From NCBI GenBank assembly GCA_035630545.1, contig DASQKK010000084.1:3405-67404 (forward strand): 64,000 nt of DNA, in the 5' to 3' direction. Each line of letters opens with the position of its first letter. The first letter of the stretch is position 1. Under the pieces are notes generated by a model. That model saw only the letters and a program-made list of their open reading frames with translations, was not told where the DNA came from and did not search any database. Shown here piece after piece: positions 8,917 to 63,655 of this stretch. This DNA comes from Gaiellaceae bacterium. Its GTDB lineage: Bacteria; Actinomycetota; Thermoleophilia; Gaiellales; Gaiellaceae. The position numbers and the translations under genes are program-made.

Positions 8917-9498
8917 ATGTCGAAGCTCGCAGTGCGAGGGCTCGTCCTGGGAACCGTGATCGCGCTGCTCGGCGTGGGCTCGTACGCCATCGCGGGCGGT
9001 GGGTCGAAGAACTTCAGCGGCAGCCCGATGACCGGATTCGAGGAGAACCCGGACCTGTCGACCACGGGGAACGGGTTGTTCACGGCACGGCTATCCAATG
9101 ACGGCACCTCGATCCACTACAAGCTCAGCTACTCCGGGCTCGAAGGAACCGTGACGCAGGCACACGTCCACTTCGCGAAGCGGGCGCTGAACGCGGGTAT
9201 CTCCTTCTGGCTCTGCGAGACCGCCACGAATCCGTCGCCGTCCGCCAGCACCCCGGCCTGTCCGATGCCGGGCGGCACCGTCGAGGGCGACATCACGGCG
9301 GCCGAGGTGATCGGTCCCGCCGCGCAAGGAATCGAGCCAGGAAACCTGGCCGAGATTCTCGCGGCGATGCGCGCCGGCCACGCGTACGCGAATGTCCACT
9401 CGTCCAAGTACGGGGGTGGCGAGATCCGCGCTCAGATCAAGAAGGGGCGCGGCGGCGACCATGACAAGGGCAAGAAGAGGCACGACGACGACGATTAG
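8917..9498 (+). CDS. secreted CHRD domain protein
   Basis: ATG with GGATGGAGG upstream, in frame with ORF 8863..9498. Signal peptide present. HVHFAKR...ANVHSSKYGGGEIRAQI fits CHRD. Charged tail KKGRGGDHDKGKKRHDDDD. Confidence 0.8.
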   Translation: MSKLAVRGLVLGTVIALLGVGSYAIAGGGSKNFSGSPMTGFEENPDLSTTGNGLFTARLSNDGTSIHYKLSYSGLEGTVTQAHVHFAKRALNAGISFWLCETATNPSPSASTPACPMPGGTVEGDITAAEVIGPAAQGIEPGNLAEILAAMRAGHAYANVHSSKYGGGEIRAQIKKGRGGDHDKGKKRHDDDD

Positions 9499-9523
9499 CC
9501 TCGTCGGCTCGAGGTGAAAGAGA

Positions 9524-9552
9524 GGGCGGCGCCGCAGAACACGGCGCCGCCC
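9524..9552. terminator. bidirectional hairpin between the convergent CHRD genes
   Basis: Perfect 11-bp stem GGGCGGCGCCG / CGGCGCCGCCC with loop CAGAACA. Confidence 0.6.
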
Positions 9553-9567
9553 CCGATCCCTCCCCCT

Positions 9568-10059
9568 CTACTTGATGTCGCCCCGGATTTCCCCGCTGGG
9601 GAACGCGACTGTGTGCACGTTCACGTAGGCACCGCCGTTGTTCATCCTCTCGATCACGTCCTCGAGGGTGGCGATGCCCCCGGGGCACGCCGCTGAGTCC
9701 GGACGGGCGATCACGTTTGCGTTGGTGATCGTGCCTTCGCTGAGCACGCCGTTGGGCGAGACGGTCGGGCCGAGGCCGTACAGAAAGACCACGACCGGCC
9801 CGTTGACGCCGGGTGCGCCGCAGTGGATGTGCGACTGGGTCACGTCGACGATATTCGAGGCGATCAGCTTGAAGTCTAGTGAGCTGCCGTCTTCCGACAG
9901 GTGGAAGACCGCCTGCGCCTGCCCCTGGCTGTCTCGAACAGGCACTTCGGTGTCGCCCTGGGAGTGGGTGCTCCAGTTCCGGTTCACGCCACCGACGGCG
10001 AGCCCGACAGCTGCCAGGCCGACCAGAAACGCTGCTGCGAGCCCTGTGCCTCGTTTCAT
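9568..10059 (-). CDS. secreted CHRD domain protein (paralogue)
   Basis: ORF 9568..10101, start taken at MKRGTGLAAAF (GGGAGGGA upstream). SHIHCGAPGVNGP...VNVHTVAFPSGEIRGDI. Confidence 0.8.
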   Translation of the reverse strand: MKRGTGLAAAFLVGLAAVGLAVGGVNRNWSTHSQGDTEVPVRDSQGQAQAVFHLSEDGSSLDFKLIASNIVDVTQSHIHCGAPGVNGPVVVFLYGLGPTVSPNGVLSEGTITNANVIARPDSAACPGGIATLEDVIERMNNGGAYVNVHTVAFPSGEIRGDIK

Positions 10060-10141
10060 GCGTCCCTCCCTTTTCCCCCCGCGGAAGTGAGTACGGACCA
10101 CTGCTCCCTACGACTACGGGCGCGACCCCGGATCGGTTTGC

Positions 10142-11260
10142 CTATGGCGCGGCCTCTTCGAGTCGGCGGATCACGTCGAGCGTGAACGCCGCCGCCCGCG
10201 CCCCGTCGACGACGCGATGGTCGAAGGTGACCGAGACGTTGCCGATCTGGCGGACGACGATCTCTCCGTCGCGAACGACGGGGCGCGGACCGATCCGGTG
10301 CAGACCGAGGATCCCGACCTGAGGGTGATTGACGAGGGGGGTCACGAGCACGCCGCCGAGCTTGCCGGCACTCGTGACGGTGAACGTGCCGTCGCGGAGC
10401 TCCTCCGGCTTCAGCGTCCCGGCCCGCGCGGACTCGGCGAGCCGCGTGACCTCGGCGGAAAGCGCCTCGAGCGGCTCGGTGTCGCAGGCGTGCACGACCG
10501 GGACGACGAGCCCCTGGTCGGTCTGGACCGCGACGCCGATGTCGACACGGTCGAGGTAGACGATCTCGTCCCCGTCGAGCCGGGCGTTCAGCTCCGGGAA
10601 CTCCTGCAAGGACGCGGCGACCGCTTTCAACGTCACCGGCAGCAGAAGCTTGACGTCGACGTCGGTGAAGTCCGCCTCCTCGACGAACGTGACGGCGGGA
10701 ATCTCGCGGTGGGCCTGGGTCAGGTGCTCGACGATCTGCCGGCGCACGCCGCGCACCGGCTCGCGCCGGCCCTCGGAGGGCTTGTGTCTATCAGACACAA
10801 GCTCCCCTCCGGCCGCGCCGCGGACATCCTCCTCCGTGACGCGCCCATTCGGTCCCGTACCACTCAACGACGCCAGATCGACGCCGAGGTCCTGGGCGAC
10901 GCGGCGGACGACCGGGGTGGCCTGAACACGAGCTTGTGACTGATAGACACTTGCCGTCGGGGCCGCCTCGGGCATCCGCCGCTCCTGTGTCGGTGCTCGC
11001 TCGGCGGCTGGCTCGGTGGCGCCGTCGCCGCCGATCACGACGAGGACGGTGCCGACCGGAACGACCTCCCCTTCGGCGACGAGGATCTTCGTCACCGTGC
11101 CCGCCGCCGGCGAGGGGATCTCGACCGTCGTCTTGTCGGTCGCGATCTCGACGAGCGGGTCGTCCTCGGCGAGCTCTTGACCCTCCGCGACGAGCCAGCG
11201 GGCGATCTCGCCCTCGGTCAGACCCTCGCCGAGGTCCGGCAGCTTGAACTCGTACGCCAT
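10142..11260 (-). CDS. 2-oxoacid dehydrogenase E2 (dihydrolipoamide acyltransferase)
   Basis: ORF track, 372 aa. Lipoyl site EIATDKTTVEIPSP, PSBD PVVRRVAQDLGVDLASLSGTGPNGRV, catalytic DHRVVDG. Confidence 0.93.
   Translation of the reverse strand: MAYEFKLPDLGEGLTEGEIARWLVAEGQELAEDDPLVEIATDKTTVEIPSPAAGTVTKILVAEGEVVPVGTVLVVIGGDGATEPAAERAPTQERRMPEAAPTASVYQSQARVQATPVVRRVAQDLGVDLASLSGTGPNGRVTEEDVRGAAGGELVSDRHKPSEGRREPVRGVRRQIVEHLTQAHREIPAVTFVEEADFTDVDVKLLLPVTLKAVAASLQEFPELNARLDGDEIVYLDRVDIGVAVQTDQGLVVPVVHACDTEPLEALSAEVTRLAESARAGTLKPEELRDGTFTVTSAGKLGGVLVTPLVNHPQVGILGLHRIGPRPVVRDGEIVVRQIGNVSVTFDHRVVDGARAAAFTLDVIRRLEEAAP
10784..10804. repeat. 21-nt AT-rich inverted-repeat arm inside the E2 gene (partner at 10930..10950); also self-palindromic
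   Basis: GTGTCTATCAGACACAAGCTC. The reverse complement of 10930..10950 is GTGTCTATCAGTCACAAGCTC (20/21 identical). Confidence 0.7.
10930..10950. repeat. 21-nt inverted-repeat arm inside the E2 gene (partner at 10784..10804)
   Basis: GAGCTTGTGACTGATAGACAC. See the partner arm. The two arms bracket the PSBD-coding segment. Confidence 0.7.
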
Positions 11261-11272
11261 CGCGCCCGCAGG

Positions 11273-11659
11273 CTACCGGGGGGTGCCGATCCAGGCGCCG
11301 GCGGGTGCGATGAGGACGCGCAGTCCGCCCTCGACGCGCCAGAGCGAGAGCGCCTGCTCGTCGCCGGCCAGCTCGGGCGCGACCGCCGCCGGGACGTAGC
11401 CGACCTGCAGCGTCCGTTCCTCGTTCCAGATCGCGACCGCATTCGGGTCGTGCTCGTTCGACGGCTCGGGAACGAGCGCGAGCCGGCGCGGCGGGTCGAA
11501 CGAGGGGTCGGACAGCGCCTCTGGGCGGTAGCTGACGCCGGCCGCCGCAACGACCCGGATCCGCGGATCCTCCCAGCCCACCGGCTCGCCGGTCGCCGCA
11601 TCACGGAGGCGGTACCCGCTCGCGCCACGCTCGAGCCAGAGCCGCAGCCGCTCCGTCAC
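11273..11659 (-). CDS. HIRAN domain protein
   Basis: GTG at 11659 overlaps the GNAT stop (GTGA). VAAAGVSYRPEAL...LALVPEPSNEHDPNAVAIWNEERTLQVGYVPAAVAPELA matches HIRAN hallmarks. Confidence 0.75.
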   Translation of the reverse strand: MTERLRLWLERGASGYRLRDAATGEPVGWEDPRIRVVAAAGVSYRPEALSDPSFDPPRRLALVPEPSNEHDPNAVAIWNEERTLQVGYVPAAVAPELAGDEQALSLWRVEGGLRVLIAPAGAWIGTPR

Positions 11660-12288
11660 AGCACGCGTGCGCCGGCGGCGTCGAACGCCGCGACCGGCGC
11701 CGCGGCAGAGGGAGAGCTGGCGTAACCGTCGCGGAAGATCGTGAAGACGACCACGTCGCGCGGCTCGCCGTCGCCGCCGGGGAGGCGCCTGCGCAGGCGC
11801 GCCTCCCGCTGGTAGCCGAGCTTGTGCGGGATCCTCGCACTGGGCTCGTTCGCCGGGTCGACGCGGATCTCGACGCGGTCGACGTCGCACACCTCGAAGG
11901 CGACCTTCGTCAGTGCGGCCGAGAGCTCGGTCGCGAGCCCGGCCCCGATCCGGCTCTTCCTGATCCAGTAGCCGATCTCGAACGCGCCCGCGCCCACCCT
12001 CGTGTGCAGGCCGGTGCCGCCGACGACCTCGGAGCCGTCCTGCGTGAAGACGCCGTAGACGAAATCCTGACCGAGGTCGAACTGACCTCGGAACCGACGC
12101 AGCAGCGACACCTTCTCCTCGTGCGGCCGCGGCTCGTCGCGCGCCCACGGCATCCACGGGCCGAGGTGGTCGAGGCTCGAGTCGATCGCGTCCTTGAGGC
12201 TCCCTGCGTCGGTCGGTTCCCAGCAGCGGATGAGCAGGCGCTCGGTACGAATCGCGTACGGCGGATCGACGACCTTCGCGGGCAGCAC
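11656..12288 (-). CDS. GNAT family N-acetyltransferase (RimJ/RimL-like)
   Basis: GTG at 12288 shares 1 nt with the E1beta stop. TERLLIRCWEPTDAGSL...IGYWIRKSRIGAGLATE...RIPHKLGY. Confidence 0.8.
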   Translation of the reverse strand: MLPAKVVDPPYAIRTERLLIRCWEPTDAGSLKDAIDSSLDHLGPWMPWARDEPRPHEEKVSLLRRFRGQFDLGQDFVYGVFTQDGSEVVGGTGLHTRVGAGAFEIGYWIRKSRIGAGLATELSAALTKVAFEVCDVDRVEIRVDPANEPSARIPHKLGYQREARLRRRLPGGDGEPRDVVVFTIFRDGYASSPSAAAPVAAFDAAGARVL

Positions 12289-13256
12289 TAGAACGCGAGC
12301 AGCGAACGGGCCGCGTCGACCACCCGCTCGACGGACGGCATGTACGCGTCCTCGATCTGCCAGTACGGGTACGGGACGTCGTACCCGGTGACGCGGACGA
12401 CCGGCGCCCGCAGGTCGAGCAGCGCCTTCTCGGCCAGGATCGCCGCCAGCTCGGCCGCGTAGCCGCACGTGCGCGGCGCCTCCTGCACGAGCACGACGCG
12501 GCCCGTCTTCGCCGCGGTCGCGAGCAGAGCCACTTCGTCGAGCGGCTTCAGCGAGCGGAGATCGAGCACCTCGACCGAGGCGTCGAGCGCATCAGCCGCC
12601 TGCTCGCAGACCGGCACCATCGCCCCGTACGCGACGAGCGTGACATCGGTTCCCTCCCGCACCAGACGTGCCTTCCCGAGCGGGACGACGTGCTCGCCGC
12701 CAGGCACTTCGCCTCGCTCGGTCCTGTAGACGAGCTTCGGCTCTAGGATCACGACCGGGTCCGGATCCCGGATGGCGGCCGCGAGCAGCCCCTTCGCATC
12801 GGCAGGCGTCGAGGGGACGGCGACCTTGATCCCGGGCGTGTGCACGTAGTACGCCTCGGGCGAGTCGTCGTGCAGCTCGGGCGCGCGCACGCCGCCGCCG
12901 TACGGCATCCGGATCGTGATCGGGAACGTCATCTTCCCGCCGGTCCGCCAGCGGTAGCGGCCGACGTGGGTGATCAGTTGGTCGAGGCAGGGGTACGAGA
13001 ACGCGTCGTACTGCATCTCGCAGACCGGCCGGTAGCCCGCCATGCAGAGCCCGACCGCGGAGCCGAGGATGCCCGCCTCGGCGAGCGGGGTGTCGACGCA
13101 GCGGTCGGGGCCGAAGCGGTCGCGGAGCCCTGCCGTCGCGCGGAAGACGCCGCCGGCGCGGCCGACGTCCTCACCGAGGACGAGCACGTCCGTGTCGCGC
13201 TCCATCTCGACGTGGAGCGCGTCGTTGACCGCCTCGACGAGAAAGAGCTCAGCCAC
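12288..13256 (-). CDS. 2-oxoacid dehydrogenase E1 component beta subunit
   Basis: ORF track, 322 aa. VLVLGEDVGRAGGVFRAT, DTPLAEAGILG. Confidence 0.93.
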   Translation of the reverse strand: MAELFLVEAVNDALHVEMERDTDVLVLGEDVGRAGGVFRATAGLRDRFGPDRCVDTPLAEAGILGSAVGLCMAGYRPVCEMQYDAFSYPCLDQLITHVGRYRWRTGGKMTFPITIRMPYGGGVRAPELHDDSPEAYYVHTPGIKVAVPSTPADAKGLLAAAIRDPDPVVILEPKLVYRTERGEVPGGEHVVPLGKARLVREGTDVTLVAYGAMVPVCEQAADALDASVEVLDLRSLKPLDEVALLATAAKTGRVVLVQEAPRTCGYAAELAAILAEKALLDLRAPVVRVTGYDVPYPYWQIEDAYMPSVERVVDAARSLLAF

Positions 13257-13280
13257 TCTCGCGCTCCTGGCCGGCTCCCG

Positions 13281-13306
13281 CTCCCGCCGGGCAAAGCCCG
13301 GCTCCG
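13281..13306. repeat. short hairpin repeat, copy A (family CTCCC-stem-AAA-stem-TCCG)
   Basis: CTCCCGCCGGGCAAAGCCCGGCTCCG, identical to 63630..63655. The reverse complement resembles 19538..19563 with compensatory stem changes. Confidence 0.55.
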
Positions 13307-13421
13307 CGGGCCCCTCGCCACGCTGACGGCCCCGGGCTCTTCGGCCCCGTACCGCCGTACTGTGACCTCCGGCCCAGCCCCGTCAGCACGGCGCCAGGAC
13401 CACAAGAGCTGCGTGACTCCG

Positions 13422-14489
13422 TCACTTGCCGAGGATCCTGCGCAGCTCGGCGAGATCGTGGGCGAACGAGTCGGGCGGGTTCGCGAGCGCATGCTCGAAG
13501 ACGAGGCCGGCGTCGGCCGCGGGCTCGGCCTCTGCGGCCGCGATCCCCGCGCGCATGACGTCCGCCGCCTCGGACTTGATCTGCTCGTCGAGCGCGTCGT
13601 GCAGGATCCCCTGCCGGCGCAGGTAGCCGGCGAAGCGGCCGACGCACTCGTTCGCCCGCTCCTCCTCCACCCGCTCGAGATCGATGTACGCCTTCGGGTC
13701 GTCGGCGGTCGCATGTGGCGCCGCGCGATAGGTGACGGCCTCGATGAAGGTCGGCCCGTCCCCGGCGCGGGCGCGCGCAACGCCCTCGCGCGCGGCCTCG
13801 TAGACGGCGAGCACGTCGCCGCCGTCCACACGGGTCCCGGGGATCCCGTAGCCGGCGGCCTTGTCCACGAGCGCCTCCGCCCGCGTCTGGGCCGAGAGCG
13901 GCGTCGAGATCGCCCACTGGTTGTTGTTGCAGAGCAGGACCAGCGGCGCGCGCATGACGGCGGCGAAGTTGGCGCCCTCGTGGAACGCGCCCTCGGAGGT
14001 GGCGCCGTCGCCGAAGAAGGTCAGCGCGCAGGCGCTTTCGCCGCGCAGGCGCTTGCCCCACGCCAGCCCGGCAGCGTGGGGAACCTGGGTTGCGATCGGG
14101 ACGCAGATCGAGGCGACGTTGTAGTCGGCGGGGTTCCACCAGCCCGCGGGATGCCCGCGCCACCAGGAGAGGATCGTCGCCGCCGGCATCCCCCGCAGCA
14201 GCCCGATCGCCGACTCGCGGTAGCTCGGAAAGATCCAGTCGTCGTCCTCGAGCGCATGCACGGCGCCGGCCTGGATCGCCTCGTGGCCCCAGAAGATCGC
14301 GTACGTCCCGATCCGGCCCTGGCGGTGGTACACCACCGAGCGCTCGTCGTAGGTCCGCAGCAGCACCATCGAGCGATAGAGCGCGAGCAGTTCCTGCTCG
14401 CCGACGCCTTCGACCTCTCCGTCCGGGATGGTGTCGCCGTCGCCGATCACGCGGCGGAGGTCTCGCTCCGCGGGCATCGTGCTCGCCAT
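13422..14489 (-). CDS. 2-oxoacid dehydrogenase E1 component alpha subunit (TPP-dependent)
   Basis: Internal ATG (MASTMPAERD) of ORF 13422..14867. TPP motif FFGDGATSEGAFHEGANFAA...NNQWAIS. Confidence 0.9.
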   Translation of the reverse strand: MASTMPAERDLRRVIGDGDTIPDGEVEGVGEQELLALYRSMVLLRTYDERSVVYHRQGRIGTYAIFWGHEAIQAGAVHALEDDDWIFPSYRESAIGLLRGMPAATILSWWRGHPAGWWNPADYNVASICVPIATQVPHAAGLAWGKRLRGESACALTFFGDGATSEGAFHEGANFAAVMRAPLVLLCNNNQWAISTPLSAQTRAEALVDKAAGYGIPGTRVDGGDVLAVYEAAREGVARARAGDGPTFIEAVTYRAAPHATADDPKAYIDLERVEEERANECVGRFAGYLRRQGILHDALDEQIKSEAADVMRAGIAAAEAEPAADAGLVFEHALANPPDSFAHDLAELRRILGK

Positions 14490-14509
14490 TCCGGCGCGGA
14501 CGATACCTC

Positions 14510-15730
14510 TCAGGGAAGGGCCAGCGCCCGCGCGAGCACCGGATCCCTGCCGGCGAGGACGTCGGCCGCCGTGGGCTCGACGGCGACGTCCGGCTCGACC
14601 GCCAGGCGTTTGTCGCCGGGCGCGACCTCGACCCATTCGGCGGCGACGTAGGCGGTCACGCCGGCGCGGGGGAGCTCGATCGGGATCCGATCGCCCCACT
14701 GATTGGGAGCTCCTCCGGTCGGCTCGCCGACGAGCATCGCATTCGTCTCGTGATCGACCGACGCCACGAAGTTCCCCGCAGCGGAGAACGTCATCCGCCC
14801 GGCCAGGACCGCAACCTTGCCGCGCTCCCGGAGCGGCCCGCTCTTCAGCAGCTCGACCAGCGACCAATAGGTCGTGTTGTCGCCGCCGCCGTTGTAGCGG
14901 GCGTCGATCACGAGCCGATGGAAGTCGGGCCGCCGCGCCGCCGCGAGGATGCGGTCGAGCAGCTCCTGCGGCGCGCTCTCGACGTGCCGGTACCCGAGAT
15001 ACAGCGAGCGGCCGCGCTCGAGCGGCTCGAGCAGGAAGGACTCGTCGAGGCCGCGGTACTGAAGCGGGTCGCCCGGCACCGGCAGCGGGGCGAACGCGGT
15101 CCCGAGCGCCTGCGCATACACATGGGACTCCACCGGCTCGAGCGTGACGCTGCTGCCGTCGGCGAAGCGGTACGTCGCCGCGCCCTTGACGGTCCCGAGC
15201 CCCCGCAGCACCTCGGCGCAGACGAGGTACTCGGGCAGCAGCAGCCGCACCGTCGAGGCGTTGTCGCGCGGAATCAGCGGCTCGACCCGGTCGACGACGT
15301 CCTCGATCGGGACGCCGTCCACGGAGACGACCCGTTTCCCGACGTGTGGCGTCCCGTCCAGCTCCGCGACGACATGCACGCCGTCGGCGAAGTCGTGGAC
15401 GCGCAGCGGGAAGAAGTGGAACGGCCGCGCGTGTGCCGGGTCGTGCAGGAAGATGCCGCCGTGGCCGTCGCGCTCCCCGAGCGTCGTCAGCCGGAGAAGG
15501 CCGACGACGAGCTCGTCGCGTGTGAGCTCGGGCGCCTTGGCGGCCAGGGCCCGCGCCTCCGCCCGCAGCTCATTCAGCGGCACCTGATGGTCGGCCTCCG
15601 GATGGAGGCTCGCCATGTCGGTGACGAGACCGGTGATCTCCCGCTGCAACGGCGTGGGCGCCGCCTGCTCCTCGTCGCCGCCGCAGCCCGCGACCACCAG
15701 TGCCAGCGCAGCGGCGGCGAGTGCGCGCAT
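14510..15730 (-). CDS. S41 family peptidase lipoprotein
   Basis: ORF track, 406 aa. Lipobox LVVAGCGG. VIDARYNGGGDN and MTFSAAGNF resemble the S41 catalytic region. Confidence 0.75.
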   Translation of the reverse strand: MRALAAAALALVVAGCGGDEEQAAPTPLQREITGLVTDMASLHPEADHQVPLNELRAEARALAAKAPELTRDELVVGLLRLTTLGERDGHGGIFLHDPAHARPFHFFPLRVHDFADGVHVVAELDGTPHVGKRVVSVDGVPIEDVVDRVEPLIPRDNASTVRLLLPEYLVCAEVLRGLGTVKGAATYRFADGSSVTLEPVESHVYAQALGTAFAPLPVPGDPLQYRGLDESFLLEPLERGRSLYLGYRHVESAPQELLDRILAAARRPDFHRLVIDARYNGGGDNTTYWSLVELLKSGPLRERGKVAVLAGRMTFSAAGNFVASVDHETNAMLVGEPTGGAPNQWGDRIPIELPRAGVTAYVAAEWVEVAPGDKRLAVEPDVAVEPTAADVLAGRDPVLARALALP

Positions 15731-63629: not shown

Positions 63630-63655
63630 CTCCCGCCGGGCAAAGCCCGGCTCCG
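63630..63655. repeat. short hairpin repeat, copy C
   Basis: CTCCCGCCGGGCAAAGCCCGGCTCCG, identical to 13281..13306. Confidence 0.55.

What the first reader, a model, noticed from the sequence alone, without database searches (positions are those of the whole stretch)
11273..12288. GNAT acetyltransferase and HIRAN-domain genes embedded between E1beta and E2 of a 2-oxoacid dehydrogenase operon
On the minus strand the order is E1alpha, E1beta, GNAT, HIRAN, E2.

The junctions indicate translational coupling. The GNAT GTG shares 1 nt with the E1beta TAG. The HIRAN GTG overlaps the GNAT TGA (GTGA). Only 12 nt separate HIRAN from the E2 ATG.

HIRAN (motif PSNEHDPNAVAIW...VGYVP) is known as a DNA 3'-end binding module of eukaryotic HLTF/Rad5-type proteins. 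It has no known connection with acyl-transfer metabolism.

An insertion inside an otherwise canonical E1-E2 operon suggests either acetylation-based regulation of the complex with HIRAN acting as an adaptor, or a selfish two-gene cassette using a highly expressed operon.
Basis: partly seen in the sequence, partly recalled or inferred. Interest (0 to 1): 0.6.

Follow-up and report, generated by a model that had tools for sequence, protein, structure and literature searches.

The report
Variable gene slot inside dehydrogenase operon
In a family of uncultured soil actinobacteria (Gaiellaceae), the gap between two subunit genes of a central metabolic enzyme complex holds a HIRAN gene (a DNA-end-binding type) plus a changing set of small enzyme genes, here an acetyltransferase; I found no report of this pairing and its purpose is unknown.

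Summary
On the minus strand the order is E1alpha, E1beta, a RimJ/RimL-type GNAT, a 128-aa stand-alone HIRAN protein, then E2. The junctions are TAGTG, GTGA and a 12-nt gap.

It is not a private two-gene cassette. Across Gaiellaceae the E1beta-E2 junction of this one operon is an accessory-gene slot:
- With one genome per genus, 34 of 47 operons have it occupied.
- 22 of 47 carry HIRAN, 14 an FmdA/AmdA amidase and 6 this GNAT.
- Orthologues of HIRAN and the amidase are found almost nowhere else in these genomes.
- Sister families have E1beta directly followed by E2.
- Other recurrent slot genes are PF06475, TPR_5 and a second GNAT type. I counted about 40 architectures.

In this window the GNAT sits exactly where the nearest relatives (E1beta 96% identical) carry the amidase.

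The HIRAN model is confident (pLDDT 91) and matches the HLTF HIRAN domain. Pocket-equivalent residues are invariant, but the protein is acidic.

Function is unresolved. I favour accessory factors of the dehydrogenase (about 0.45) over unrelated hitch-hikers (about 0.35).

This scan had already noted the same arrangement in six other genomes, as first-reader notes only. No paper describing it was found.

The parts
13422..14456 (-). E1 alpha subunit of a heterotetrameric (PDH/BCKDH-type) 2-oxoacid dehydrogenase
   Evidence: Pfam E1_dh 2.5e-77. NCBIfam TIGR03181 scores 382.7 bits, just under its 411 cut-off. Closest solved structures are Geobacillus PDH E1alpha 1w85 (3e-60) and Thermus 2-oxo acid dehydrogenase E1alpha 1um9 (2.8e-56), followed by the human and Pseudomonas branched-chain (2-oxoisovalerate) dehydrogenases. 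The substrate is not assignable.
13257..13421 (-). 165-nt spacer between E1alpha and E1beta, specific to this lineage
   Evidence: blastn homology to the three nearest relatives stops at window 13429-13432 and resumes at 13256. In the relatives the two blocks abut or overlap.
12288..13256 (-). E1 beta subunit
   Evidence: Pfam Transket_pyr 8.7e-38 and Transketolase_C 1.8e-35. Orthologues are 76-96% identical across Gaiellaceae.
11656..12288 (-). RimJ/RimL-type GNAT N-acyltransferase (210 aa); its GTG start shares one base with the E1beta TAG
   Evidence: Pfam Acetyltransf_3 3e-22. Closest solved structures are YdaF-like 1nsl (5e-14) and a putative ribosomal-protein-serine acetyltransferase 2fck. 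Orthologues (54-70% id) lie in the same slot in 6 genera of the one-per-genus draw and outside the operon in 5. It occupies the position of the amidase gene of the closest relatives.
11273..11659 (-). Stand-alone HIRAN-domain protein (128 aa); its GTG overlaps the GNAT TGA
   Evidence: Pfam HIRAN 39.3 bits against a cut-off of 24.7. AlphaFold2 model has pLDDT 90.8 and pTM 0.84. Best PDB fold matches are the HLTF HIRAN domain (4s0n, 4xzg, 4xzf) and Lp_0118 (3k2y), E about 2e-4. N68, H70, D71, R45 and Y88 are invariant in 35 orthologues; position 44 is always F or Y.
11261..11272 (-). 12-nt spacer before E2
   Evidence: Whichever gene precedes E2 in related loci usually ends in TAG followed by about 10-15 nt and then the E2 start.
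10142..11260 (-). E2 dihydrolipoyl acyltransferase (one lipoyl domain, a subunit-binding domain, a catalytic domain)
   Evidence: Pfam Biotin_lipoyl 1.4e-21, E3_binding 7.4e-16, 2-oxoacid_dh 8.4e-67.

Best explanation
Shown:
- The GNAT and HIRAN genes are intact, co-directional, translationally coupled occupants of a Gaiellaceae-wide accessory-gene slot. The slot lies between E1beta and E2 of one PDH/BCKDH-type operon.
- HIRAN is the long-standing resident. It is present in about half of the genera, is as conserved as E2, and is found almost only in this slot.
- The RimJ/RimL-type GNAT is one of a small rotating set of partner genes. The others are an FmdA/AmdA amidase, a second GNAT type, PF06475 and TPR_5.
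- In this lineage the GNAT sits exactly where the nearest relatives carry the amidase.

Inferred:
- The junctions are overlapping stop/start codons and no promoter-like or terminator-like site lies within the operon. The two proteins are therefore probably made from the E1-E2 message in amounts tied to E1 and E2.
- They most likely work as accessory factors of this dehydrogenase.
- The amide-forming enzymes (GNATs) and the amide-splitting enzyme (amidase) would act either on the acyl-CoA that E2 releases or on acyl- or lipoyl-lysine amides of E2.
- HIRAN is a small acidic protein with an invariant pocket of the HLTF type. It would serve as a ligand-binding or protein-binding adaptor or regulator, not as a classical repair factor.

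I hold the anatomy and evolutionary history at about 0.9 and the functional reading at about 0.45.
For: - Coupled junctions and domain assignments. No sigma-70-like promoter or intrinsic terminator in 9900-14900.
- In the window's own genus, HIRAN was found in 17 of 24 genomes and always in the slot. In four sister families of the order it was found in 0 of 16 genomes. The three sister-family genomes with an orthologous E1beta have a slot of 3-44 nt.
- Census with one genome per genus, 47 operons: 13 empty and 34 occupied. HIRAN is in 22, the amidase in 14 and the GNAT in 6.
- All 17 amidase orthologues in the draw lie beside slot genes. HIRAN lies next to E1beta in 24 of the 26 genera that have a HIRAN match.
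- HIRAN is 61-83% identical across genera, against 63-78% for E2, so it is under comparable constraint.
- Recurrent slot families are few. Three of the six, the two GNAT types and the FmdA/AmdA amidase, are annotated as making or splitting amide bonds.
- Slot-internal junctions are mostly NTGA overlaps.
- HIRAN fold and invariant pocket-equivalent residues. The protein is acidic: pI about 5, net charge about -5.
- The swap is dated by the E1beta tree and by blastn breakpoints at the E1beta stop and the HIRAN start.
Against: - No experiment or expression data.
- Slot genes are dispensable: 13 of 47 operons have none, and close relatives differ in content.
- Some loci carry 3-kb inserts between HIRAN and E2, including opposite-strand genes. 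Strict co-translation with E2 is therefore not required.
- Two loci keep HIRAN at the syntenic site without E1 or E2 beside it.
- GNATs and TPR proteins are abundant small genes that could land anywhere.
- Positional fidelity can be explained by vertical inheritance alone.
- The closest studied HIRAN domains bind DNA 3' ends, not metabolites or enzyme complexes.
Confidence: 0.45

Rival explanations
1. Permissive landing pad. The E1beta-E2 junction tolerates insertions, and small promoterless genes that land there gain expression from the operon's promoter. Their functions have nothing to do with the dehydrogenase. HIRAN does a DNA-end job (repair, or sensing phage DNA). The GNAT and the amidase act on unrelated substrates.
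For: - Slot content differs between close relatives, and 13 of 47 operons are empty.
- Large unrelated inserts, some on the opposite strand, occur in the same slot.
- HIRAN is retained without adjacent E1/E2 in L136 and L144.
- The GNAT also lives outside the operon in 5 genera.
- Pocket residues of the DNA-end-binding type are invariant.
- Bacterial HIRAN domains are otherwise known from Hip-kinase and defence contexts (PMC8262856, PMC11706625; weak PADLOC PDC-M03B hits).
Against: - Only this junction is used. E1alpha-E1beta stays contiguous in nearly all loci.
- The repertoire is small and recurrent rather than random, and includes uncommon families (FmdA/AmdA, PF06475).
- Amidase and HIRAN orthologues are essentially slot-exclusive.
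- Junctions are kept as overlapping stop/start codons.
- The HIRAN protein is acidic and has no lysine, which is unusual for a DNA binder.
Confidence: 0.35
2. Acyl-CoA supply at nucleic-acid ends. HIRAN tethers the dehydrogenase, or its product, to DNA or RNA 3' ends. The GNAT then uses locally made acyl-CoA to acylate proteins bound there.
For: - HIRAN fold with conserved pocket-equivalent residues.
- A GNAT that needs acyl-CoA is encoded beside the enzyme that makes it.
- From my own recall, not checked here: E2 of Bacillus PDH has been reported to bind DNA, and nuclear PDC and alpha-KGDH/KAT2A supply acyl-CoA for histone acylation.
Against: - Only 6 of 47 operons carry this GNAT, and most HIRAN-bearing operons have none.
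- HIRAN is acidic.
- Nothing else in the neighbourhood is DNA-related.
Confidence: 0.1
3. Selfish or mobile two-gene cassette (toxin-antitoxin-like or integron-like) parasitising a highly expressed operon.
For: Two small genes with overlapping stop/start codons. GNAT toxins and predicted HIRAN-containing antitoxins exist in other systems (PMC8262856).
Against: - GNAT and HIRAN occur independently of each other in most genomes.
- The GNAT is of the RimJ/RimL type and gives no PADLOC hit.
- Junctions overlap, so there is no room for attC-like sites, and no shared junction repeat was seen.
- HIRAN identity to the window falls roughly in step with that of E1beta and E2 across genera, as vertical descent predicts.
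Confidence: 0.03

Closest known systems
HIRAN domain of human HLTF and yeast Rad5 (Pfam PF08797; PDB 4s0n, 4xzf, 4xzg, 5bnh)
   Same: - The fold matches: Foldseek E about 2e-4, probability 1.0, about 93 aligned columns.
- The loop motif EP-x-N-E-H-D-P-N-A aligns with HLTF DPNNPYDKNA.
- Equivalents of N91 and D94 are invariant, and an aromatic residue plus Arg sits where R71/Y72 lie.
   Different: - It is a stand-alone 128-aa protein with an extra N-terminal beta-hairpin of about 34 residues.
- Y93 is replaced by an invariant His.
- It is acidic (pI about 5).
- It is not fused to an SNF2 or RING module and is encoded inside a metabolic operon.
Stand-alone bacterial HIRAN protein Lp_0118 of Lactobacillus plantarum (PDB 3k2y)
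   Same: A small single-domain bacterial HIRAN. It is the second-best fold match and the best sequence match in the PDB.
   Different: Function also unknown. Sequence identity is about 16%. I know of no link to a dehydrogenase operon.
HIRAN domains of Hip-kinase modules (HipL, HipN) and of HipA/diDNase clusters in Actinobacteria
   Same: Bacterial HIRAN domains used outside classical repair proteins (PMC8262856, PMC11706625). Weak PADLOC hits to PDC-M03B fall on the same region.
   Different: Those are fused to HipS-like or kinase domains and sit in toxin-antitoxin or defence loci. Here there is no kinase and no HipS-like domain, and no Hip-kinase or defence gene was noticed among the neighbouring genes examined.
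RimJ/RimL-type protein N-acetyltransferases (Pfam Acetyltransf_3; B. subtilis YdaF, PDB 1nsl)
   Same: Full-length match to Acetyltransf_3. Best PDB matches are 1nsl and 2fck.
   Different: Scores are far below the NCBIfam RimJ, RimL and SpeG cut-offs. The acceptor substrate is unknown. The operon context is new.
Gram-positive-type pdhABC / bkdABC operons (E1alpha-E1beta-E2 contiguous)
   Same: Same three genes, same order and same domain sets. Sister families of the same order keep E1beta and E2 only 3-44 nt apart.
   Different: In Gaiellaceae, 34 of 47 operons carry 244-2067 nt of extra genes between E1beta and E2.
OdhI/GarA, the small FHA-domain regulators of actinobacterial 2-oxoglutarate dehydrogenase (from my own recall; analogy only)
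   Same: Precedent for a small non-catalytic protein that binds and regulates an actinobacterial 2-oxoacid dehydrogenase.
   Different: Unrelated fold, not encoded inside the operon, and controlled by phosphorylation. No evidence here for any binding.

Membership tests
HIRAN domain (PF08797) | Sequence match above Pfam's gathering score | tested here: met
   39.3 bits against 24.7, E 5.6e-10, covering profile positions 6-62 of 96. The whole-genome family search also passes the cut-off.
HIRAN domain (PF08797) | HIRAN beta-barrel fold | tested here: met
   AlphaFold2 model with pLDDT 90.8. The top 16 PDB fold matches are all HLTF HIRAN or Lp_0118, TM about 0.5 over about 93 columns.
HIRAN domain (PF08797) | Pocket residues that hold the 3'-terminal nucleotides in HLTF. 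Y72 and Y93 stacking is described in PMC4666394. The roles of N91 and D94 are from my own recall of the HLTF structures. | tested here: inconclusive
   N68, D71, R45 and Y88 are invariant and residue 44 is always F or Y. The Y93 equivalent is an invariant His. The motif is kept but altered.
HIRAN domain (PF08797) | Binding of DNA 3'-OH ends | not testable with these tools
   Needs gel-shift or fluorescence-anisotropy assays. The acidic net charge makes it uncertain.
GNAT superfamily, Acetyltransf_3 (RimJ/RimL-like) | Full-length match to PF13302 and similarity to solved RimL-like enzymes | tested here: met
   E 3e-22, residues 17-160 on profile positions 1-138 of 138. PDB 1nsl 5e-14 and 2fck 3e-10.
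GNAT superfamily, Acetyltransf_3 (RimJ/RimL-like) | Orthology to a named enzyme (RimJ, RimL, SpeG, BlmB) | tested here: not met
   All NCBIfam hits are far below their cut-offs, for example PRK10809 at 29 bits against 190 and TlmB at 31 bits against 625.
Heterotetrameric-E1 2-oxoacid dehydrogenase operon (PDH/BCKDH type) | E1alpha (E1_dh), E1beta (Transket_pyr plus Transketolase_C) and E2 (lipoyl, subunit-binding and catalytic domains), in that order | tested here: met
   and orthologous operons.
Heterotetrameric-E1 2-oxoacid dehydrogenase operon (PDH/BCKDH type) | Substrate class (pyruvate, branched-chain or acetoin) | tested here: inconclusive
   TIGR03181 sits just under its cut-off. PDH and BCKDH structures score similarly.
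Integron-like gene-cassette array | attC-type recombination sites between cassettes, with an integrase nearby | tested here: not met
   Cassette junctions are overlapping stop/start codons and leave no room for a site. No common junction repeat was seen in over 90 loci. An integrase was not specifically searched for.
GNAT-toxin type II toxin-antitoxin pair | An obligate toxin-antitoxin gene pair that travels together | tested here: not met
   HIRAN occurs without the GNAT in most operons, and the GNAT occurs without HIRAN (G296, G298, G288) or outside the operon. No PADLOC hit for the GNAT.

The most novel reading that the evidence does not exclude
The HIRAN protein is a stoichiometric accessory subunit of a bacterial 2-oxoacid dehydrogenase complex. 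It couples the complex to nucleic-acid 3' ends or to a nucleotide ligand with a free 3'-OH. The slot's GNATs and amidase write and erase acyl marks using acyl-CoA made on the spot. This would be a bacterial counterpart of the nuclear PDC and alpha-KGDH/KAT2A acyl-CoA supply lines, and a new non-repair role for the HIRAN fold.
Probability: 0.1. Interest if true: 0.85.

Novelty: new variant of a known kind. Interest (0 to 1): 0.6.

Why it matters
- HIRAN is known as a DNA 3'-end reader of fork-remodelling enzymes and, in bacteria, of toxin-antitoxin and defence modules. Finding it fixed for a whole family's history between two subunit genes of a central metabolic complex gives a concrete, testable case. 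Either the fold has a non-DNA role, or there is a direct link between acyl-CoA metabolism and nucleic-acid ends.
- The slot is also a clean natural experiment in operon evolution. One junction inside an enzyme-complex operon has accepted at least six gene families in about 40 arrangements while overlapping stop/start junctions were kept.
- Gaiellaceae are abundant in soil metagenomes: the HIRAN query alone found 5228 similar proteins in the genome and metagenome protein collection. Their physiology is almost unknown.

Tried and rejected
- Promoter and terminator scan: nothing found in 9900-14900. This is weak evidence in a GC-rich actinobacterium.
- Cassette-boundary repeats or attC-like sites: I printed every stop-codon junction of over 90 loci and found no shared repeat. 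There is only the rule that slot-to-slot junctions are NTGA overlaps and that the last gene ends in TAG followed by about 10-15 nt before the E2 start.
- Natural E1beta-HIRAN or HIRAN-amidase fusions as Rosetta-stone evidence: the candidates in the 50%-cluster library (P0149, P0151, P0154, P0212, P0220, P0262) are frame-switching gene calls across overlapping genes, not real fusions.
- I suspected a BRCT domain in P0190, a related HIRAN protein. Pfam does not support it.
- Origin of the window's GNAT: the tree is unresolved. The nearest relative is only 70% identical, and the GNAT of same-genus G017 only 46%. Gain and differential loss cannot be told apart.
- The amidase is not found elsewhere in the window's genome, but that genome is only 54% complete.
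- PDB sequence search for the PF06475-like slot protein returned nothing. The amidase matches only structural-genomics 'acetamidase' entries.
- The two HIRAN loci without E1/E2 (L136, L144) may partly reflect mixed MAGs. G305 holds two versions of the locus.
Full report
**1. The observation.**
The minus strand of window 10142-14456 reads E1alpha (13422-14456), a 165-nt spacer, E1beta (12288-13256), a 210-aa ORF (11656-12288), a 128-aa ORF (11273-11659) and E2 (10142-11260).
- TAGTG between E1beta and the 210-aa ORF.
- GTGA between the two inserted ORFs.
- 12 nt between the 128-aa ORF and the E2 ATG.

Pfam gives these assignments:
- 210-aa ORF: Acetyltransf_3, 3e-22, full profile length.
- 128-aa ORF: HIRAN, 5.6e-10, 39.3 bits against a gathering score of 24.7.
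- E2: lipoyl, E3-binding and catalytic domains.
- E1alpha and E1beta: the expected E1 domains.

NCBIfam names none of them as an equivalog. E1alpha falls just under TIGR03181, and the GNAT gives only faint RimJ, RimL and BlmB-type hits. No sigma-70-like promoter or intrinsic terminator was found anywhere in 9900-14900.

**2. Organism.**
The window is contig C84 of a 54%-complete MAG. Names attached to close HIRAN homologues, and the titles of related genome records, place it in Gaiellaceae (Thermoleophilia, Actinomycetota), mostly from soil metagenomes.

**3. It is not a private cassette.**
- In 24 genomes of the same genus, HIRAN was found in 17, always between the orthologous E1beta and E2. 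It was found in none of 16 genomes from four other families of the order.
- The three out-of-family genomes with an orthologous E1beta (81-84% identity) have E1beta and E2 only 3-44 nt apart.
- Within the genus the usual slot content is not GNAT-HIRAN. It is a roughly 285-aa FmdA/AmdA-family amidase followed by HIRAN.
- Other genus members have the amidase alone, HIRAN alone, or amidase-GNAT-HIRAN.

**4. Family-wide picture.**
A scan of species-representative genomes with a HIRAN alignment found 297 relatives. The best 80 are at least 69% identical, and nearly all are labelled Gaiellaceae or a broader actinobacterial rank; two carry other labels. They were fetched with 6-kb flanks. In 78 of the 80, HIRAN lies next to the orthologous E1beta and/or E2.

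Pooling all fetched loci gives about 40 different architectures. The recurrent slot genes are:
- HIRAN.
- The FmdA/AmdA amidase.
- The RimJ-like GNAT.
- A second, shorter GNAT (Acetyltransf_1).
- Two variants of PF06475 ('putative glycolipid-binding').
- A 120-aa TPR_5 protein.
- A 3-TM protein.

A few loci carry inserts of 1-3 kb, some on the opposite strand. Both amidase-HIRAN and HIRAN-amidase orders occur. The HIRAN-first loci carry a distinct, slightly longer HIRAN subtype, so that rearrangement looks old.

**5. Unbiased census.**
The 80-locus set was selected on HIRAN, so I repeated the count on one genome per genus (80 genera) with E1beta, E2, HIRAN, the amidase and the GNAT as queries.
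- The orthologous E1beta was found in 54 genera.
- 47 operons have E1beta and E2 on one contig.
- Of these, 13 have an empty slot (2-24 nt) and 34 an occupied one (244-2067 nt).
- 22 carry HIRAN, 14 the amidase and 6 the GNAT.
- 5 carry only other content.

HIRAN was detected in 26 of the 80 genera. In 24 of them it is next to E1beta. The other two have a short remnant and a distant paralogue (about 45% identity). All 17 amidase orthologues lie beside slot genes. The GNAT is less faithful: 6 in the slot and 5 elsewhere. HIRAN is 61-83% identical across genera, in the same range as E2 (63-78%). The window's own combination, GNAT plus HIRAN without the amidase, is rare. The census holds only one similar case, and its HIRAN is a remnant.

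**6. History of this window's slot.**
On an E1beta tree the window sits in a group made almost entirely of amidase-HIRAN operons, with E1beta up to 96% identical; the fork itself has 93/96 support, just under the tree's own starring threshold.
- Nucleotide homology to the three nearest of these stops at the E1beta stop codon (window about 12285).
- It resumes at 11661-11690, at the HIRAN start (11659).
- So a whole gene has been exchanged between conserved, overlapping junctions.

The nearest GNAT in the sample is only 70% identical, and the GNAT tree is unresolved. I cannot say whether the GNAT was gained here or the amidase was lost from an amidase-GNAT-HIRAN ancestor. That ancestral arrangement exists in G017, G252 and L106. 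The same comparison shows that the 165-nt E1alpha-E1beta spacer is also peculiar to this lineage.

**7. Junction grammar.**
Slot gene to slot gene is nearly always an NTGA overlap. Whichever gene comes last usually ends in TAG, followed by about 10-15 nt and then the E2 start. I found no shared repeat or room for a recombination site, which argues against an integron-like mechanism. Downstream synteny is conserved across the family: E2, then 0-3 CHRD genes, then a thioredoxin-like gene, then an AlkP-family gene. E1alpha-E1beta is contiguous almost everywhere. The variability is therefore concentrated at this one junction.

**8. The HIRAN protein.**
- With 35 orthologues as the alignment, AlphaFold2 gives pLDDT 90.8 and pTM 0.84.
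- The 16 best PDB fold matches are all HLTF HIRAN (with and without DNA) or the stand-alone Lp_0118, at E 2e-4 to 1e-3 and about 93 aligned columns.
- The first 34 or so residues form an extra beta-hairpin. It contains a motif (ERLRLWLE...GY-LRDAATGE) that is conserved in the operon-linked subfamily and not aligned in the unlinked paralogues.
- The loop EP-x-N68-E-H70-D71-P-N-A aligns with HLTF DPNNPYDKNA.
- N68, H70, D71, R45 and Y88 are invariant, and residue 44 is always F or Y.
- HLTF uses Y72 and Y93 to sandwich a dinucleotide (PMC4666394). Here the Y93 equivalent is an invariant His.
- The protein is acidic (median pI 5.06, net charge -5, almost no lysine).

A conserved ligand pocket is thus likely. 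Avid DNA binding is not obvious.

**9. Exceptions.**
Two loci (L136, L144) keep HIRAN at the syntenic place, beside the thioredoxin-like and AlkP genes, without E1 or E2. One of those genomes has E1alpha-E1beta-E2 with an empty slot on another contig. The other has a second, complete copy of the locus, so MAG mixture is possible. At face value, HIRAN can persist without adjacent E1/E2.

**10. What is known.**
I found no paper that links HIRAN to a 2-oxoacid dehydrogenase operon. Bacterial HIRAN domains have been discussed in two settings:
- As parts of HipL kinases and HipN putative antitoxins, as possible DNA-end sensors (PMC8262856).
- Beside HipA and deoxydinucleotide-specific nuclease (diDNase) genes in actinobacterial islands (PMC11706625).

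PADLOC gives only weak PDC-M03B hits for HIRAN and nothing for the GNAT. This scan's own notes list the same arrangement in six other genomes, with the amidase, PF06475, TPR, GNAT and 3-TM partners. All are first-reader notes without follow-up. My census confirms each of those partner types on independent loci.

**11. Interpretation.**
Shown:
- The anatomy and the domain and fold assignments.
- The family-wide slot and its repertoire.
- The slot-exclusivity of HIRAN and the amidase.
- The whole-gene exchange in this lineage.

Inferred: co-expression by coupled translation.

For function I weigh two readings.
- (a) Accessory factors of the dehydrogenase. In favour: use of this single junction, the small recurrent repertoire, the fact that three of the six recurrent families make or split amide bonds (the chemistry of acyl-CoA consumption and of E2's lipoyl-lysine), the maintained coupling, and constraint on HIRAN equal to that on E2.
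- (b) Unrelated hitch-hikers at a permissive junction. In favour: dispensability, rapid turnover, large unrelated inserts, the two orphan HIRAN loci, and the DNA-type pocket.

I put (a) at about 0.45 and (b) at about 0.35. A DNA-linked acyl-CoA supply reading gets about 0.1, and the selfish or toxin-antitoxin cassette about 0.03.

**12. Verdict.**
The finding is real and reproducible across a bacterial family. I found no description of it in the literature I could search. Its function is open. It is a new variant of a known kind: a canonical E1-E2 operon with an internal accessory-gene slot whose constant tenant is a stand-alone HIRAN protein.

Noticed in passing
window 13257-13428: The 165-nt spacer between E1alpha and E1beta is absent from the three closest relatives, where the two genes abut or overlap. 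It is a lineage-specific insertion. An earlier first-reader note says it carries a hairpin repeated at 63630-63655.
   Followed up: partly
window 8917-10101, and loci L076-L155 downstream of E2: The CHRD-domain genes downstream of E2 vary from 0 to 3 copies and in orientation among related genomes. The flanking thioredoxin-like and AlkP-family genes stay syntenic.
   Followed up: partly
L136:6001-6384 and L144:6001-6381: HIRAN orthologues (74-77% identical) sit at the syntenic site next to the thioredoxin-like and AlkP genes with no E1 or E2 beside them. In L136 the upstream gene is a diacylglycerol-kinase-like ORF. The genome of L136 has E1alpha-E1beta-E2 with an empty slot on another contig (L156). 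The genome of L144 has a second, complete locus (L157), which suggests a mixed MAG.
   Followed up: partly
proteins P0149, P0151, P0154, P0212, P0220, P0262: Public protein catalogues contain chimeric 'fusion' proteins. They read the 3' end of E1beta or the amidase out of frame and run into HIRAN. These are gene-calling artefacts of overlapping genes in GC-rich DNA and could mislead domain-architecture surveys.
   Followed up: yes
L031 (G017:C2:405000-415000): The operon in this same-genus genome is split into many frame-shifted tblastn pieces (E1beta, HIRAN, E2). This points either to an error-prone long-read assembly or to a decaying copy. Its GNAT is only 46% identical to the window's.
   Followed up: no
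L084, L093, L104, L128 (slot inserts of about 3 kb): Some slots hold large genes, in L084 and L093 on the opposite strand. My readings of these from the translated sequence are a roughly 935-1000-aa AAA/LuxR- or cyclase-like protein, an FAD monooxygenase-like gene and a 541-aa membrane protein; none was run against a family library. In these genomes E2 must have its own promoter.
   Followed up: no
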